From the IMG/VR virus record IMGVR_UViG_2974766419_000001, positions 1 to 64,000 of that record: a stretch of DNA of 64,000 bases; one strand, given 5' to 3'. A program made the position numbers and the translations under genes. Of this stretch, positions 520 through 15,404 are shown in pieces (position 1 is the first letter of the stretch; each line of letters opens with the position of its first letter). Under the pieces are notes generated by a model. It searched no databases. It had not been told where the DNA came from and was given only the letters and a program-made list of their open reading frames with translations. This DNA comes from a virus. Lineage: Duplodnaviria > Caudoviricetes.

Positions 520-740
520 CAGTGAGCCTCCCGGTCGGCAGCGCGCATAACCTTCGGCAGCGTGGGTGGTGGCGGGAGGGTGATCCCGACGCCGTGCGAG
601 CCGAGGTGCCGACGCAGCCGGACGGCGAACATCGTGGCCTCGTCGTCGCTCCAGTTCGGCTCCTCGTTGAGCATGAAGTAGGCAACGATGTTCTCGAACT
701 CAGTGACGCTGGTCATGTGGTGTGGTTCAAGGTGTGGCAT
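519..740 (-). CDS. Hypothetical protein (73 aa)
   Basis: ORF track; AAGGAG SD; overlaps with neighbours. Confidence 0.65.
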   Translation of the reverse strand: MPHLEPHHMTSVTEFENIVAYFMLNEEPNWSDDEATMFAVRLRRHLGSHGVGITLPPPPTLPKVMRAADREAH

Positions 741-882
741 CAGCCTTCTCCTTGGTGTCGTGGGTGCAGTCGGATCGGTGGTTGCCGTTCACGTAGAAGT
801 ACAGGCCGCAGCCCGAGCACCAGTCGGTGTTGAGCCGCGAGTTGGTGTTGCCTGCGCAGTCCTGGGGCTTGATCCGCGGCAT
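727..882 (-). CDS. Small Cys-containing hypothetical protein (51 aa, MPRIKPQDC...WCSGC...)
   Basis: Translated by hand; TGATG overlap with upstream gene. Confidence 0.6.
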   Translation of the reverse strand: MPRIKPQDCAGNTNSRLNTDWCSGCGLYFYVNGNHRSDCTHDTKEKADATP

Positions 883-1349
883 CAGTCGTCAGCCTTGCGT
901 GATCCGCAGCTGCACTTGTGACGGCCGGGGTGGCCCTCGGTCATCATGCAGCGGCAGTCGTCCAGCTCTGCGGAATCGCACCACTGCGCGGCACAGCCCT
1001 TGGGTAGGCAGCGGTGCACGTGCCCGATGTCGGATCCGGCGACGCAGGGCATCGCCAGCTCGGCCACGGCATCAGACACTCCGTCGAGGATCAGCACGTC
1101 GGCGGTGCGTCCGCGAAGCCCTGATTGCCTGGGGTAGCAGAAGCTGATCCTGCCGCCGGTGCTGGTCTCGATCGCCTCGTCGCCTCGGCCGAGGTAGACC
1201 TTCTCGAGCAGATCGGGCGACATCGTTTCGGCGATGTCGCGCAGCATGTCGCGCACCGCTGGGCCGACGTAGAGAATCCGGTGGCCCCGCGCGAGGTGGT
1301 GGATGGCCAGCTCGGCGATGTTGGTGTTCGGTTTCTGAACAGTCGTCAT
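882..1349 (-). CDS. Truncated terminase-large-subunit ATPase-like protein with Cys-rich tail
   Basis: EKVYLGRGDEAIETSTGGRISF...GLRGRTADVLILD aligns by eye with this phage's own TerL (RKVTLGSGDEAVEFTNGSRILF...GRGIPGVDVLMSDE); AAGGAG SD. Confidence 0.7.
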   Translation of the reverse strand: MTTVQKPNTNIAELAIHHLARGHRILYVGPAVRDMLRDIAETMSPDLLEKVYLGRGDEAIETSTGGRISFCYPRQSGLRGRTADVLILDGVSDAVAELAMPCVAGSDIGHVHRCLPKGCAAQWCDSAELDDCRCMMTEGHPGRHKCSCGSRKADD

Positions 1350-1352
1350 GGG

Positions 1353-1730
1353 TCAGGTCTCCTTGAACCAGCGGTGCACCTGGCCGACGGGCGAGCCAGC
1401 GATGCAGGGCGCGACCTCTTCGGCAACCTCGTCGGACACTTCGTCGAGCACCAGCACGTCGGCGGTGAGTCCGCGGCCGGCGGTGGCGTTGGACGCAACG
1501 AAGTGGATCTTGCCGCCGGTGGTGGTCTCCAGGTATTCGCTACCGCGGGCGAGGCTGATCCTGCGGACGAGGTGCGGGGGGAGGGCTTTGGCGACCACCC
1601 CCTGCGCGGCGCGGGAACGCTCAGAGCTGGGGGAGACGAAGATGATGCGCCGCCCCTCCTTGAGATGGCGGATGGCCAGCGCGGCGAGCTGGTTCTCCCA
1701 GGTGTTCGATTCCCGAACAGGTGTCGTCAT
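1353..1730 (-). CDS. Second truncated terminase-ATPase-like protein (paralog of 882-1349)
   Basis: RRISLARGSEYLETTTGGKIHF...GRGLTADVLVLDEV; ATGA overlap with upstream gene sets the start at 1730. Confidence 0.7.
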   Translation of the reverse strand: MTTPVRESNTWENQLAALAIRHLKEGRRIIFVSPSSERSRAAQGVVAKALPPHLVRRISLARGSEYLETTTGGKIHFVASNATAGRGLTADVLVLDEVSDEVAEEVAPCIAGSPVGQVHRWFKET

Positions 1731-2296
1731 GGCGTGACTCCCAACGTGGTGAGGGCGAGGACCGCCTGCTGCGGGCACACGCCGTTGCCGATGATCCAGA
1801 GCTTGTCAGCGTGCGACAACTCCAGTCCAGTGACCCAGCCGTCGGGCCAGCCCATCATCCACTCGGCGAATGCGGGGTTGACGCGGAGCTTGCCGCGGCG
1901 TCCGCGGGCGATGGCAGGCGGTGCGGGCCGGGTGAGTGATACCCAGTGCTCGATGGCCAGCACGATGCCGGCGCGCCGCGATCCCATGTCGACCATCGGG
2001 ACGGTGACCTCGAACAGCTCGGCTTCGGCCAGGTTGAGGATGGCGTCGGTCAGGCCGCGGCCGTGCCCGCTGCGGCCGCGGTTGGCGTCAGCGGCGACGG
2101 GTGTGGGCAACAACGAATATTCGTTGGCGTCGGTGGGGCGCTCCCGCGTCGGACGCTGGTACAACTTCCCATTCCGCATCGAACCCGAGGTCGGCCAGGT
2201 CCCCGAGAACTGCTCCGATTCCCCGGGGATCTCCTGCCATGTCGCGCTGATCAGGTCCCATTCGGCCCAGGGTTGATCGGATGTTGGCTCGGACAT
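1727..2296 (-). CDS. C5-cytosine DNA methyltransferase, C-terminal part (TRD and motifs IX-X)
   Basis: VNPAFAEWMMGWPDGW and IGNGVCPQQA motifs; GAGGA SD upstream of ATG 2296. Confidence 0.75.
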   Translation of the reverse strand: MSEPTSDQPWAEWDLISATWQEIPGESEQFSGTWPTSGSMRNGKLYQRPTRERPTDANEYSLLPTPVAADANRGRSGHGRGLTDAILNLAEAELFEVTVPMVDMGSRRAGIVLAIEHWVSLTRPAPPAIARGRRGKLRVNPAFAEWMMGWPDGWVTGLELSHADKLWIIGNGVCPQQAVLALTTLGVTP

Positions 2297-2666
2297 GAAG
2301 CAGGTTCCTCACGTTCTCGATGACGACAGTCTGCGGGCGCAGTGCGTCGATGGCGCGGACGAATTCGACCCACAGGCCGGATTGGGTGCCGGGTGCCAGG
2401 CCCGCCTGTCGTCCGGCCGGGCTGATGTCTGTGCATGGAAATCCTCCACACAAGATGTCGACCGGCCCGAGGCTCCAGCGCACCCGCGACCAGTTGACCC
2501 GCCGGATGTCGCCGAGGTTGGGCACCCCGGGCCAGCGTTCGGCCAGCACGAGCTTGGCGGCGCGGTCGATCTCGCAGTGCCAGATGACGCGCCCGCCGGT
2601 GGCCTGCTCGACGGCGCGGTCCAACATGCCAGACCCTGAGAACAGGCTGCCGATTCTCGCGGTCAT
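2088..2666 (-). CDS. C5-cytosine DNA methyltransferase, N-terminal catalytic part (motifs I-VIII)
   Basis: SLFSGSG (I), GGFPC (IV), IENV (VI), HRRQRIF (VIII); ATGA overlap at 2663-2666. Confidence 0.85.
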   Translation of the reverse strand: MTARIGSLFSGSGMLDRAVEQATGGRVIWHCEIDRAAKLVLAERWPGVPNLGDIRRVNWSRVRWSLGPVDILCGGFPCTDISPAGRQAGLAPGTQSGLWVEFVRAIDALRPQTVVIENVRNLLHVRANIRSTLGRMGPDQRDMAGDPRGIGAVLGDLADLGFDAEWEVVPASDAGAPHRRQRIFVVAHTRRR

Positions 2667-2815
2667 GTCGTCACCACGAACAGGATCGCGAGCACCGCGA
2701 AGGTCCCGAGGGCGATGCCGGCGAGCGCCATATTCACCCGCCAAGGCAGCTGAGTGACCGGGGTGTTGCGGTCCCAGGCGTCTCGCATCTGCTCGCCGAG
2801 TGAGGGCTCAGGCAT
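2663..2815 (-). CDS. Small membrane protein (50 aa)
   Basis: C-terminal hydrophobic helix ALAGIALGTFAVLAILFVV. Confidence 0.6.
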   Translation of the reverse strand: MPEPSLGEQMRDAWDRNTPVTQLPWRVNMALAGIALGTFAVLAILFVVTT

Positions 2816-4758: not shown

Positions 4759-4787
4759 AGTATGCGCCGCCCTGTCGGGAATGTCAA
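4759..4787 (-). promoter_or_regulatory. SigA-like leftward promoter (TTGACA-17-CATACT), likely leaderless
   Basis: Minus strand -35 at 4787-4782, -10 at 4764-4759; ATG at 4750. Confidence 0.7.
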
Positions 4788-13633: not shown

Positions 13634-13933
13634 ATGACTGACGTGAATGAGGGTGTTCGGAATCCGAACACTCCTGATGGCGAAGAGTCCACCGGCGTTG
13701 CCGCCGCTGCAGAGTCTGGCGACGAGCTGCAGCTGCTGTACGCCATCCGCAACAAGCTCGCCTCGGCCATCGAGGACTGTCCAGTGCGCGACCTGTCGCC
13801 GCTGACCCGACGACTCCAGGACACCGTGAAGGAGATTCGGGAGCTGGAGGAACGCCGAGCCAAGGAACGGAGCAGCAAGGAGGCCAGCAGTGGTGGAGCC
13901 AGCGACAAGTGGGACCCTTCCGCAGAGCTCTGA
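13634..13933 (+). CDS. Terminase small subunit (putative)
   Basis: Position; helical L..IRNKLA.AI..CP.RDL..L.RRL pattern typical of actinophage TerS. Confidence 0.65.
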   Translation: MTDVNEGVRNPNTPDGEESTGVAAAAESGDELQLLYAIRNKLASAIEDCPVRDLSPLTRRLQDTVKEIRELEERRAKERSSKEASSGGASDKWDPSAEL

Positions 13934-15404
13934 CGACGACGGCGACAGTCCGGTCCTCGACTTCAACAACCTGACCCCCGAGGACATCGAGCGCCGTCGC
14001 AACCGCAAGCTGTCCGAGGTCACCCGACGCCTAGTCATCCCTTCCAACATCGCCGGGTCGTACTGGCCGCGTGTGCGGCGCACCTGCAACGAGCGACTGG
14101 GCCTGTCACTGGACCGCTGGCAGGACGGCATCGCCGGGCTGCTGCTGGCGTACCGCCCCGACGGCGTGCTGGCCCACACCATCGGCGGGTTCGGCGTCAG
14201 CATCCCCCGCCAGTGCGGCAAGACCCACACCCTGACCGCGGTGCTGTTCGGGCTGTGCGTCGAGTACCCCGGCGTGCTGGCCATCTGGACGAGCCACCAC
14301 GTGAAGACCAACACCGAGACATTCCAGGCGGTGCAGGCGTACGCCAAGCGCGAGCGGGTCGCGCCGTTCATCCGCAAGGTCACCCTCGGTTCCGGCGACG
14401 AGGCGGTCGAGTTCACCAACGGCAGCCGCATCCTGTTCGGCGCCCGCGAGCGCGGCTTCGGCCGAGGCATCCCAGGCGTCGACGTGCTGATGTCCGACGA
14501 GGCGCAGATTCTCACCCAACGCGCCATGCAGGACATGCTCGCCACCCTGAACACCTCGCGCCTGGGCCTGCACATCTACGTCGGCACCCCGCCCAAGCCC
14601 ACCGACAACTCCGAGATGTTCTCGGTGATGCGACGCGAAGCTGAGGCCGGCGAGGCCACCGACATCGTGTGGATCGAATGCGGTGCCGAGGACACCGGCG
14701 ACCTCGACGACATCGAGCAATGGATGAACGCCAACCCGTCGTGCCCGCACCGCACCCCCGTGGTGTCGATTCAACGCCTGAGACGACGCCTCGATGACGA
14801 CGGGTTCCGCCGCGAAGCGCTCGGCATCTGGGACGCCAGTGAGTCGTCCAGCTTCGACCTGGCCGCCTGGTCCGACCTGGGCGACCGTGGTGTTGACGCG
14901 CCGACGCGCGCCGCGCTGGTGCTCGACATGAGCCCCGACCGCCGCCACTGCTGGATCGGCGTCGCGGGCGACGTCGACACCGACGACGGCGAGAAGGTGC
15001 TGCTGATGGCGATGGAAACCACCGCGGCGACCGCCGTCGAGAAGGTGCGCCAGCTGGTCAATGAACGTGACATCGTTGACGTGGCTATCACCAACGGCGC
15101 GGCCCGCGCGCTGGAGCCGGCACTGGTCGAAGCGGCCATCGAGTACCAGCGGCTCAGCCAAGCCGACGTGGCCGCGGCGTACTCCACATTGCAGGAAGGC
15201 ATCAAGAACAAGTCGGTCTGCCATCTCGACCAGGCCGAGCTCAACAACGCGATGATGATGACCCGTACCCGGTTCATGACCTCCGGCGAATCGGAGGTGT
15301 TCGACCGCCGCAACTACAGCGTCAACCTGTCCCCCGCCGTGGCGTGCGCCTCTGCGCTGTTCAGGTGGGGGCTCATGGCGAAGCCCATGCCCATTCTGCT
15401 GTGA
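13890..15404 (+). CDS. Terminase large subunit
   Basis: PRQCGKT Walker A; VLMSDEAQ Walker B; GTPP coupling motif; C-terminal nuclease (LDMSP); start uncertain. Confidence 0.95.
   Translation: MVEPATSGTLPQSSDDDGDSPVLDFNNLTPEDIERRRNRKLSEVTRRLVIPSNIAGSYWPRVRRTCNERLGLSLDRWQDGIAGLLLAYRPDGVLAHTIGGFGVSIPRQCGKTHTLTAVLFGLCVEYPGVLAIWTSHHVKTNTETFQAVQAYAKRERVAPFIRKVTLGSGDEAVEFTNGSRILFGARERGFGRGIPGVDVLMSDEAQILTQRAMQDMLATLNTSRLGLHIYVGTPPKPTDNSEMFSVMRREAEAGEATDIVWIECGAEDTGDLDDIEQWMNANPSCPHRTPVVSIQRLRRRLDDDGFRREALGIWDASESSSFDLAAWSDLGDRGVDAPTRAALVLDMSPDRRHCWIGVAGDVDTDDGEKVLLMAMETTAATAVEKVRQLVNERDIVDVAITNGAARALEPALVEAAIEYQRLSQADVAAAYSTLQEGIKNKSVCHLDQAELNNAMMMTRTRFMTSGESEVFDRRNYSVNLSPAVACASALFRWGLMAKPMPILL

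What the first reader, a model, noticed from the sequence alone, without database searches (positions are those of the whole stretch)
882..1730. Two tandem mini-terminase genes: Walker-A-less copies of the TerL ATPase subdomain in the early operon
Seen: both small proteins align by eye with this phage's own TerL. TerL: RKVTLGSGDEAVEFTNGSRILF..GRGIPGVDVLMSDEA. 882-1349: EKVYLGRGDEAIETSTGGRISF..GLRGRTADVLILDGV. 1353-1730: RRISLARGSEYLETTTGGKIHF..GRGLTADVLVLDEV. Neither has the RQCGKT Walker A or the nuclease domain. Each has its own translation signal and a one-mismatch 17-bp operator within its first codons, and they sit next to a DNA methyltransferase ~12 kb from the packaging genes. Established: the STAND-type Avs1-3 defence proteins recognise terminase large subunits. 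Inference: these could be early-expressed decoys that soak up terminase-sensing immunity, or dominant-negative inhibitors of packaging by competing phages or satellites.
Basis: partly seen in the sequence, partly recalled or inferred. Interest (0 to 1): 0.85.

Follow-up and report, generated by a model that had tools for sequence, protein, structure and literature searches.

The report
Tandem P-loop-less terminase-ATPase mini-paralogs
A Cluster O mycobacteriophage carries two adjacent small genes encoding stripped-down versions of the DNA-packaging enzyme's motor domain that lack its ATP-binding loop; they belong to a large, unnamed actinophage family of unknown function, so the fold claim holds but the immune-decoy idea is untested.

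Summary
Genes 1353-1730 (125 aa) and 882-1349 (155 aa), both on the minus strand, are 46% identical paralogs. By sequence, profile and fold they match the TerL ATPase core from just after the P-loop to the C-motif strand. They lack the P-loop strand, the lid and the nuclease.

Three corrections:
- They are not copies of this phage's own TerL, because foreign HK97-type TerLs are closer.
- They are two old alleles of one locus. All 32 other Cluster O records carry only one of them. Here the long allele is precisely inserted into a Catdawg/MadKillah-like backbone.
- The "operator" is the known Cluster O 17-bp repeat, whose function is unknown.

The family is large (about 400 cluster representatives, mostly 100-145 aa, from actinophages). 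About 15% keep a G-[DE]-R-Q-x-G-K-T P-loop, which was lost several times. The catalytic Glu is rare, while an R-G...D motif shared with TerLs is nearly invariant. These proteins therefore probably act by binding, not by hydrolysing ATP.

Function is unknown. The closest studied analogues (T4 vs.8, Ksap2) activate Avs2 rather than block it. This scan has already noted dead TerL-ATPase paralogs in at least 13 other genomes.

The parts
1353..1730 (-). Short mini gene (125 aa, P0002). It encodes the TerL ATPase core without the P-loop strand, lid or nuclease, and keeps the Walker B motif L-D-E.
   Evidence: (phrog_6910, E 1e-54). The ATG overlaps the stop of the upstream MTase gene (ATGA at 1727-1730).
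1008..1349 (-). Long mini gene, core part (residues 1-114 of the 155-aa P0001). It has the same fold as the short protein, but Walker B reads L-D-G, so the catalytic Glu is lost.
   Evidence: (BFVD model of the Ryadel 155-aa protein, TMq 0.86).
885..1007 (-). Cys/His-rich C-terminal tail of the long protein. Eight ligand residues are conserved with Corndog gp5: C119, C124, C132, C134, H140, H144, C146, C148. It is a presumed zinc module of unknown fold.
   Evidence: No family was found, and the AF2 pLDDT is below 50 here.
1703..1719 (.). Cluster O 17-bp dyad repeat (one mismatch) in codons 4-10 of the short gene. This is the spot where the TerL P-loop aligns.
   Evidence: PMC4351075.
1325..1341 (.). 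Cluster O 17-bp dyad repeat (one mismatch) in codons 3-9 of the long gene.
   Evidence: PMC4351075.
1359..1364 (-). Shine-Dalgarno motif AAGGAG for the long gene, lying inside the last codons of the short gene.
   Evidence: Read from the sequence.
1738..1742 (-). Shine-Dalgarno motif GGGAG for the short gene.
   Evidence: Read from the sequence.
1727..2744 (-). Split C5 DNA methyltransferase made of two overlapping ORFs (2088-2744 and 1727-2296), immediately upstream in the same operon.
   Evidence: PF00145, E 4e-33, for the N-terminal half; PMC4351075. Relatives of the mini gene also abut C5 MTases.
13890..15404 (+). Resident large terminase (TerL) with P-loop P-R-Q-C-G-K-T. The segment homologous to the mini proteins is about 14280-14588.
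   Evidence: HK97 TerL 6z6d, E 7e-20.
4759..4787 (-). SigA-like promoter candidate heading the leftward operon that contains both genes.
   Evidence: consensus scan only; PMC4351075 describes leftward promoters.
727..882 (-). Downstream 51-aa Cys-containing ORF. Its ATG shares one base with the stop codon of the long gene.
   Evidence: It is conserved as MadKillah gp3 and Corndog gp4.

Best explanation
Shown: both genes encode stand-alone, non-catalytic paralogs of the TerL ATPase core. Each keeps helix alpha-1, the TerL-type beta-hairpin, the Walker B strand and the C-motif strand. Each lacks the P-loop strand, the lid and the nuclease. They are two ancient alleles (46% identical) of one accessory locus next to the C5 methyltransferase. 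In this phage, most likely Ryadel, the long allele was inserted beside the short one.

Inferred: because the ATP site is gone while an R-G...D loop shared with TerLs is almost invariant, the proteins act by binding rather than by hydrolysis. I commit to this mechanism as the most likely one: they mimic the TerL ATPase core and dock onto a TerL-type ATPase (the packaging motor) at a subunit-subunit face, and so modulate or cap motor assembly. Binding to DNA and binding to host terminase sensors are the main alternatives.
For: Identity of the proteins:
- Homology to TerL from the P-loop position to the C-motif: hhalign probability 99.7%, E 1.6e-25, and E 5e-14 within the genome.
- TerL ATPase domains are the six best structural matches for both models and the best Foldseek and Atlas matches.
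- Among longer proteins, the only relatives found are TerLs.

Pattern across the family:
- There are 407 representatives at E<=1e-3, mostly 100-145 aa.
- Of the 140 aligned members, 21 or 22 (depending on motif stringency) carry a G-[DE]-R-Q-x-G-K-T P-loop.
- R86 is present in 136 of 140, and G87, D91, G63 and G72 are also near-invariant. The catalytic Glu is present in only 24 of 140.
- The same R, G and D residues are invariant in the TerL alignment.
- The tree needs at least 3 and up to 9 changes of P-loop state, and the P-loop forms lie towards the base.

The genes are real:
- Corndog gp5 was detected by LC-MS/MS with acetylated Thr2, which fixes the P-loop-less start (PMC4351075).
- The gene is intact in all 32 other Cluster O records.

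Links to packaging in relatives:
- In Arthrobacter phage AbbyDaisy the mini is gene 1, two genes before the terminase.
- In one metagenome contig it sits before a ParB-MTase, then terminase and portal genes.
- In Gordonia phage Ohgeesy it is gp84, next to the HNH endonuclease at the genome end.
- In prophage prophiGD43A-2 it lies about 3 kb upstream of the terminase.

In P74-26 TerL the isolated ATPase domain is the DNA-gripping and ring-forming module, and R139 is a trans-acting arginine finger (PMC5389665).
Against: - No binding test could be run.
- In Cluster O the genes lie 12 kb from terL, on the other strand, in an operon with DNA-modification and nuclease genes.
- The proteins resemble foreign TerLs more than the resident TerL.
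- Contexts across the family are heterogeneous and resemble those of morons (independently inserted accessory genes). Examples are a position after a Cas4 exonuclease, among head-tail genes, and before a tail tube gene.
- The lid subdomain, which forms part of the TerL ring interface in published models (PMC9410871), is absent.
- Equivalence of R86 with the P74-26 arginine finger is not established. The profile alignment and the HK97 K140 mapping both place the finger a few residues upstream. HK97 TerL has no trans finger at all (PMC9410871).
- dN/dS within Cluster O is 0.5-1.7, based on very few substitutions.
Confidence: 0.3

Rival explanations
1. DNA-modification or DNA-metabolism accessory. 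The mini protein binds DNA through the TerL-like core and works with the neighbouring split C5 methyltransferase, or with nucleases in other phages.
For: - The mini gene abuts or overlaps a C5 MTase in three diverged lineages of the near clade, even though the gene order is flipped: Cluster O, the P0006 contigs and the P0010 contigs. The P0010 contigs also have a Vsr-like DUF559 gene upstream.
- In the P0026/P0043 subclade the mini gene precedes a ParB_N or ParB-N6-MTase gene.
- In Microbacterium phages the gene overlaps a Cas4-family exonuclease gene.
- Fusions point towards nucleic acid: a weak RHH N-terminus in P0012 and the Cys/His tail in the long allele, which is annotated 'DNA binding protein' in phage Suarez.
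- The TerL ATPase domain alone binds DNA (PMC5389665).
Against: - Adjacency may only reflect inherited synteny among distant relatives of Cluster O, since endonuclease VII is also shared.
- Many family members have no MTase nearby.
- DNA gripping by TerL needs the ATP-bound state (PMC5389665), which these proteins cannot reach.
- The RHH match is below the Pfam threshold.
Confidence: 0.15
2. Immune interplay. The protein binds host sensors built for the TerL ATPase fold (Avs1-3-like or Upx-like), either as a non-activating competitor or merely as an extra trigger.
For: - Small TerL-ATPase-like phage proteins do bind Avs2. These are Ksap1, Ksap2 and T4 vs.8. Their authors suggest they may be anti-defence proteins (PMC11564622, PMC13601566).
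- T4 vs.8 matches the family profile at hhalign E 6.7e-5 and has the same G-G-R-Q-S-G-K-S loop.
- The locus is allelic and the family's genomic contexts are moron-like.
- Repeated P-loop loss would remove the ATP that Avs2 and Avs3 read.
Against: - All studied examples activate Avs2 rather than block it, and ligand binding is what switches Avs proteins on.
- Avs3 also reads the nuclease domain and the bound ATP, both of which are missing here (PMC13601566).
- No PADLOC family was hit, no Avs of the host was examined, and no binding test was possible.
Confidence: 0.12
3. Inter-phage weapon. The protein is a dominant-negative cap for the packaging motors of competing phages or satellites that use HK97-type TerLs.
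For: - The proteins are more similar to foreign HK97-type actinophage TerLs (43-45% identity over 64-67 aa) than to the resident TerL.
- Other phages that carry a mini likewise showed no hit to their own TerL with the same query.
- The genes sit in an operon driven by a SigA-like promoter, which suggests early expression.
- The locus is variable between otherwise near-identical phages.
Against: - Sequence similarity does not predict binding.
- There is no exclusion phenotype known for Cluster O phages.
- The lid-forming part of the ring interface is absent.
- This is a special case of the best explanation and equally untested.
Confidence: 0.08
4. Decaying relic. These are leftover TerL fragments with no function of their own.
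For: - dN/dS within Cluster O is near 1 for the short allele and about 0.6 for the window's long copy.
- The long copy here differs from the other long alleles at 18-20 non-synonymous sites.
Against: - The family has hundreds of diverged members of constant size with near-invariant motifs.
- The ORF is intact in every Cluster O genome, and the protein was detected by mass spectrometry (PMC4351075).
- Both models are confident, compact folds.
- The substitution counts are too small to show relaxation (1-9 synonymous changes).
Confidence: 0.05

Closest known systems
ATPase domain of HK97-type large terminases (TerL; PDB 6z6d; also P74-26 4zni, T4 gp17 2o0h, Sf6 gp2, D6E)
   Same: Homologous ASCE core with the TerL-type G-x-E-x-I...G-G...F hairpin, the R-G...D-x4-D motif and the C-motif strand. 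These are the best sequence, profile and fold matches.
   Different: The mini proteins have no beta-1/P-loop, lid subdomain or nuclease, at 125 and 155 aa against about 500 aa. The catalytic Glu is lost in the long copy and in most of the family. They are not encoded in the packaging module here.
T4 vs.8 (219 aa), a stand-alone TerL-ATPase-like protein that activates EcAvs2 (PMC13601566)
   Same: It is a small stand-alone paralog of the TerL ATPase outside the packaging genes, with unknown function. Its G-G-R-Q-S-G-K-S and F-R-G-L...I-I-D-E motifs align with the family profile (hhalign E 6.7e-5, probability 64%).
   Different: vs.8 keeps Walker A and Walker B and has an N-terminal extension of about 85 aa. 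It occurs in T4-like coliphages. The homology is weak and may run only through TerL.
Ksap2 (Bas60_220) and Ksap1, small phage proteins that trigger KpAvs2 (PMC11564622, PMC13601566)
   Same: [quoted passage not shown] Ksap1 lies next to a methyltransferase gene.
'ASCE ATPase' / 'AAA-ATPase' annotations of actinophage mini proteins (MadKillah gp4, Auspice gp120, Ohgeesy gp84, Reindeer)
   Same: These belong to the same family. MadKillah gp4 is the ortholog of the short gene.
   Different: These are database labels only. No paper or experiment was found. The label also overlooks that most members, including both here, have no P-loop and cannot be ATPases.
RecA2 domains of SF2 helicases (analogy only)
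   Different: They are covalently linked to RecA1 and are not homologous at the sequence level. No partner is known here.

Membership tests
TerL (large terminase) ATPase domain | ASCE/RecA-like core with the terminase-type topology | tested here: met
TerL (large terminase) ATPase domain | Sequence or profile homology to TerLs | tested here: met
   BLASTP E 1e-7 and 7e-6 against the resident TerL. Profile E 5e-14. hhalign probability 99.7%, E 1.6e-25.
TerL (large terminase) ATPase domain | Walker A P-loop (here R-Q-x-G-K-[ST]) on strand beta-1 | tested here: not met
   No such motif is present in either protein. The aligned position holds T-P-V-R-E-S-N-T-W. The upstream ORF extension has none either. 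The start of the ortholog was confirmed by mass spectrometry (PMC4351075).
TerL (large terminase) ATPase domain | Walker B hhhhD-E with catalytic Glu | tested here: inconclusive
   The short protein has V-L-V-L-D-E (met). The long protein has L-I-L-D-G (not met). Across the family the Glu is kept in 24 of 140 members.
TerL (large terminase) ATPase domain | Lid subdomain and C-terminal RNase H-like nuclease | tested here: not met
   The proteins end just after the C-motif strand. The models align only to the N-terminal core, roughly TerL residues 38-200. Their lengths are 125 and 155 aa.
phrog_6910 (PHROGs, unknown function) | Full-length profile match | tested here: met
   E 1.2e-54 (positions 1-124 of 125) for the short protein and E 2.9e-45 for the long one.
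vs.8-like stand-alone TerL-ATPase paralogs | Small stand-alone protein homologous to the TerL ATPase and encoded outside the packaging genes | tested here: met
   The genes lie 12 kb from terL.
vs.8-like stand-alone TerL-ATPase paralogs | [quoted passage not shown] | tested here: not met
   Walker A is absent in both proteins, and the Walker B Glu is absent in the long one.
vs.8-like stand-alone TerL-ATPase paralogs | Activates Avs2 on co-expression | not testable with these tools
Anti-defence decoy for terminase sensors | Binds the sensor domain without activating it and relieves defence | not testable with these tools
   No complex prediction was available. PADLOC gave no hit, but PADLOC does not cover anti-defence proteins.
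Cluster O 17-bp dyad repeat | Matches TGTTCGGNNNCCGAACA | tested here: met
   Sites 1325-1341 and 1703-1719 each have one mismatch. There are 27 sites in the window against 0 expected. The repeat is described in PMC4351075 and PMC6439249.

The most novel reading that the evidence does not exclude
Phages widely carry stand-alone TerL-ATPase-core proteins. In actinophages this family shed its P-loop several times because the bound ATP is what terminase-sensing immune receptors read.

On this reading, the P-loop-less forms either escape such sensors while keeping their primary binding function, or occupy the sensor pocket without the ATP needed for activation. The second case would make them true competitive antagonists (decoys) of terminase-sensing immunity.
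Probability: 0.08. Interest if true: 0.85.

Novelty: new variant of a known kind. Interest (0 to 1): 0.5.

Why it matters
Stand-alone copies of the packaging motor's ATPase core are turning up in many phage groups. T4 vs.8 was first studied in 2026, and this scan has noted dead TerL paralogs in at least 13 other genomes. No function is known for any of them.

This actinophage family is the most reduced form seen so far, at about 110-125 aa, with the P-loop strand removed. It is large and compact, and it occurs in phages with good genetic tools (BRED, a recombineering method for mycobacteriophages, with the host M. smegmatis). Cluster O offers natural variants with the short allele, the long allele or both, in otherwise near-identical genomes. 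That makes the open question of what these terminase look-alikes do directly testable.

Tried and rejected
- Sequence searches of the PDB with the family profiles gave nothing significant, and phmmer with the closest TerL gave nothing.
- Pfam, NCBIfam and PADLOC have no family for either protein. Pfam gave only a sub-threshold NAT10/TcmA helicase-domain hit.
- The search for related loci failed with the wide alignment and gave one locus with the narrow one. A systematic survey of contexts was therefore not possible, and contexts were sampled one at a time.
- dN/dS within Cluster O is inconclusive because there are only 1-9 synonymous changes per pair.
- Arginine finger: I first read R86 as the P74-26 R139 finger because of its spacing to the Walker B Glu. 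The profile alignment (4zni residue 139 aligns about 5 residues upstream) and the HK97 mapping (K140 lies 3 residues upstream of the H-G that aligns with R-G) do not confirm this. It is stated only as lying in the same loop.
- The 489-aa neighbour of P0011 is not detectably a TerL of this type, so that context was not counted as linked to packaging.
- The Cys/His tail has no Pfam or Atlas match, no paralog in the window and no confident fold.
- A crude scan of how the 17-bp sites sit relative to ORF starts was uninformative in this GC-rich genome.
- A recent duplication of the resident TerL is rejected. A recent tandem duplication is also rejected, given 46% identity and a precise insertion of a foreign allele.
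Full report
**What is there**

The window is the first 64,000 bases of a 72,658-bp virus record. It is a Cluster O mycobacteriophage (Corndogvirus). The genome length equals that published for phage Ryadel (PMC6439249), and the BFVD library holds a 155-aa Ryadel protein that matches the long gene product. The phage is therefore most likely Ryadel.

Two genes lie head to tail on the minus strand. Gene 1353-1730 encodes 125 aa (P0002) and gene 882-1349 encodes 155 aa (P0001).
- The first ATG overlaps the stop codon of the C-terminal half of a split C5 DNA methyltransferase (MTase), as ATGA.
- Three bases separate the two genes.
- The stop of the second gene shares a base with the ATG of a 51-aa ORF.
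- Each gene has a Shine-Dalgarno motif: GGGAG at 1738-1742 and AAGGAG at 1359-1364.
- A SigA-like promoter candidate at 4787-4759 and a terminator-like hairpin at 88-73 bound the leftward operon (consensus scans only).

The two proteins are 46% identical (E 5e-33). Both match phrog_6910, a family of unknown function, at E 1e-54 and 3e-45.

Against the phage's own TerL (13890-15404, P-loop P-R-Q-C-G-K-T):
- BLASTP gives E 1e-7 and 7e-6.
- A profile of the family finds TerL in the genome at E 5e-14.
- hhalign of the family against eight TerLs gives probability 99.7% and E 1.6e-25 over 124 columns. These run from the P-loop to the G-T-P-P C-motif.

AlphaFold2 models are confident: pLDDT 86.8 and pTM 0.81 for the short protein, and 81.1 and 0.73 for the long one, with its core at about 95.
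- Foldseek puts HK97 TerL first at E 8e-5 with TMq 0.75.
- The Atlas structure search returns only terminase-like clusters, judged by name or Pfam family.

Neither protein has a Walker A motif. Both begin at the helix that follows the P-loop in TerL and end just after the C-motif strand, so strand beta-1, the lid and the nuclease are all missing. The short protein keeps L-D-E in Walker B, while the long one has L-D-G.

The truncated start is real. Corndog gp5, the ortholog of the long protein, was seen by LC-MS/MS with an acetylated Thr2 (PMC4351075).

1. These are not copies of this phage's TerL. Both proteins score higher against TerLs of other phages (up to 60 bits and 43-45% identity) than against the resident TerL (36 and 32 bits).

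2. They are not a recent tandem duplication.
   - All 32 other Cluster O records have exactly one gene at this place. In 21 it is the short form and in 11 the long form.
   - Relative to MadKillah/Catdawg-type genomes, the window has a precise 469-bp insertion (882-1350) that is the long gene. The flanks are 93-99% identical.
   - The inserted copy differs from the other long alleles at 18-20 non-synonymous sites.
   - The 5' ends, which contain the 17-bp repeat, are exchanged between alleles.

3. The '17-bp operator' is the known Cluster O dyad repeat TGTTCGGNNNCCGAACA. It occurs 27 times in the window, and its function is unknown (PMC4351075). It happens to occupy the codons that align with the TerL P-loop.

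**The family**

A profile search of 1.84 billion cluster representatives found 407 proteins at E<=1e-3. Most are 100-145 aa and stand alone. The long hits are HK97-type TerLs matched at about residues 80-190. Among proteins longer than 357 aa, only TerLs were found.

Of 140 aligned small members:
- 21 or 22, depending on how strictly the motif is read, carry an N-terminal G-[DE]-R-Q-x-G-K-T P-loop; the rest have none.
- 39 begin M-N-[RKQ]-x, most often M-N-R-Y.
- R86 (136 of 140), G87, D91 (135 of 140), G26, G63 and G72 are nearly invariant.
- The Walker B Asp is kept in all P-loop forms but in only 80 of 118 P-loop-less forms.
- The catalytic Glu is kept in 24 of 140.

The same Arg, Gly and Asp are invariant in the TerL alignment.

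A FastTree phylogeny has low resolution. It puts TerLs on one side and P-loop-bearing minis in several basal groups. P-loop-less minis fall in large derived clades, which implies at least three losses. Both window proteins sit in one well-supported 12-member clade that is entirely P-loop-less.

Cultured-phage members are labelled 'hypothetical', 'ASCE ATPase', 'AAA-ATPase', 'DNA helicase', 'DNA binding protein' or 'replication-associated'. I found no paper on them.

**Genomic contexts**

Within the near clade, the mini gene abuts a C5 MTase in three diverged lineages even though the gene order is flipped. One of these also has a Vsr-like DUF559 gene.

Elsewhere the contexts vary:
- before a ParB_N or ParB-MTase gene followed by terminase and portal genes;
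- as gene 1, two genes before the terminase;
- next to the HNH gene at the genome end;
- overlapping a Cas4-type exonuclease gene;
- among head-tail genes, or just before a tail tube gene;
- among unnamed genes.

This pattern looks like that of a mobile accessory gene. The links to methyltransferases and to packaging genes recur but are not universal.

**How it most likely works**

Shown: these are compact, expressed, conserved proteins with the TerL ATPase core but no ATP site.

Inferred: they act by binding. The part of the sheet they keep includes the TerL hairpin and the R-G...D loop that precedes the Walker B strand. In P74-26 TerL that loop region carries the trans-acting finger R139, and the isolated ATPase domain is sufficient for DNA binding and ring contacts (PMC5389665). 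I could not show that R86 is that finger. Two alignments place the finger a few residues upstream, and HK97 TerL has no such finger (PMC9410871).

My best guess (0.3) is a TerL-core mimic that docks on a TerL-type ATPase and modulates or caps motor assembly. The rivals are:
- a DNA or methyltransferase accessory (0.15);
- interplay with terminase-sensing immunity (0.12);
- a weapon against other phages' motors (0.08);
- a decaying relic (0.05).

The remainder is something not yet conceived.

**The decoy idea**

Two papers bear directly on it. KpAvs2 is triggered by small phage proteins Ksap1 and Ksap2, and Ksap2 weakly resembles a TerL ATPase (PMC11564622). EcAvs2 is activated by the TerL ATPase domain alone and by T4 vs.8, a stand-alone TerL-ATPase-like protein with Walker A and B. 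In that system a bridging ATP contacts the ATP in the terminase site. Avs3 also reads active-site residues, ATP and the nuclease (PMC13601566).

So the known small TerL look-alikes are agonists, not decoys. The authors leave their true function open and mention anti-defence as one possibility. T4 vs.8 aligns with the family profile (E 6.7e-5, probability 64%) and shares the G-G-R-Q-S-G-K-S loop with the P-loop-bearing minis.

A P-loop-less form could in principle escape or block such sensors. That is the most novel reading the evidence allows, and I give it about 8%.

**Selection**

Pairwise dN/dS within Cluster O is 0.7-1.7 for the short allele and 0.5-0.8 for the window's long copy against the others. 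These values rest on only 1-9 synonymous changes, so they neither show nor exclude relaxed selection. No copy is broken in any genome.

**Standing**

This is a new, extreme variant (P-loop strand removed, about 110-155 aa) of a kind that is only now being noticed: stand-alone, mostly dead TerL-ATPase paralogs. Earlier notes of this scan describe such paralogs in giant phages, T4-like phages and P1-like phage-plasmids. I did not test those notes. The tandem pair itself is a local curiosity that arose by allele insertion.

Noticed in passing
window 1703-1719 and 1325-1341: The Cluster O 17-bp repeat occupies the codons that align with the TerL P-loop. In relatives it encodes V-R-K-P-N-T. The 5' ends that carry it are swapped between the short and long alleles; for example, the TelAviv short allele starts like the window's long allele.
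   Followed up: partly
L028:322-1543 and L029 (metagenome contigs): A three-gene string with overlapping stops and starts: a DUF559 (Vsr-like endonuclease) gene, the mini gene, then the N-terminal half of a C5 methyltransferase. This resembles a Dcm-Vsr-like module with a TerL-core protein in the middle.
   Followed up: partly
window 1727-2744: The C5 methyltransferase is split into two ORFs that overlap by about 209 bp in different frames. Only the N-terminal half hits PF00145. In metagenome relatives the called MTase ORF is also only about 175 aa.
   Followed up: partly
window 885-1007 and 727-882: The tail of the long protein has eight conserved Cys/His residues and no detectable family. 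The next gene encodes a 51-aa protein with four Cys. Both may be small zinc modules.
   Followed up: partly
L037:6254-6913 (phage T4 vs.8): T4 vs.8 carries G-G-R-Q-S-G-K-S and F-R-G-L...I-I-D-E. These are the same motif pair as in the P-loop-bearing actinophage minis, although T4's own TerL is of a different type.
   Followed up: partly
L040:1463-2541 and L009:6001-6727: Two family members sit inside the virion structural module, one directly before a tail tube gene and one among head-tail connector genes. This is an odd place for an ATPase-like protein.
   Followed up: no
P0039 and P0068 (about 300-320 aa, metagenomic): These two proteins fuse an N-terminal region of about 180 aa with no Pfam match to the mini domain. 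One has the P-loop and one does not.
   Followed up: no
P0017 (2669 aa): A giant protein matched the family profile in 11 short stretches. This is probably a chance resemblance between the G-x-E-R-I...G-G hairpin and a repeat, and I treated it as a false positive.
   Followed up: no
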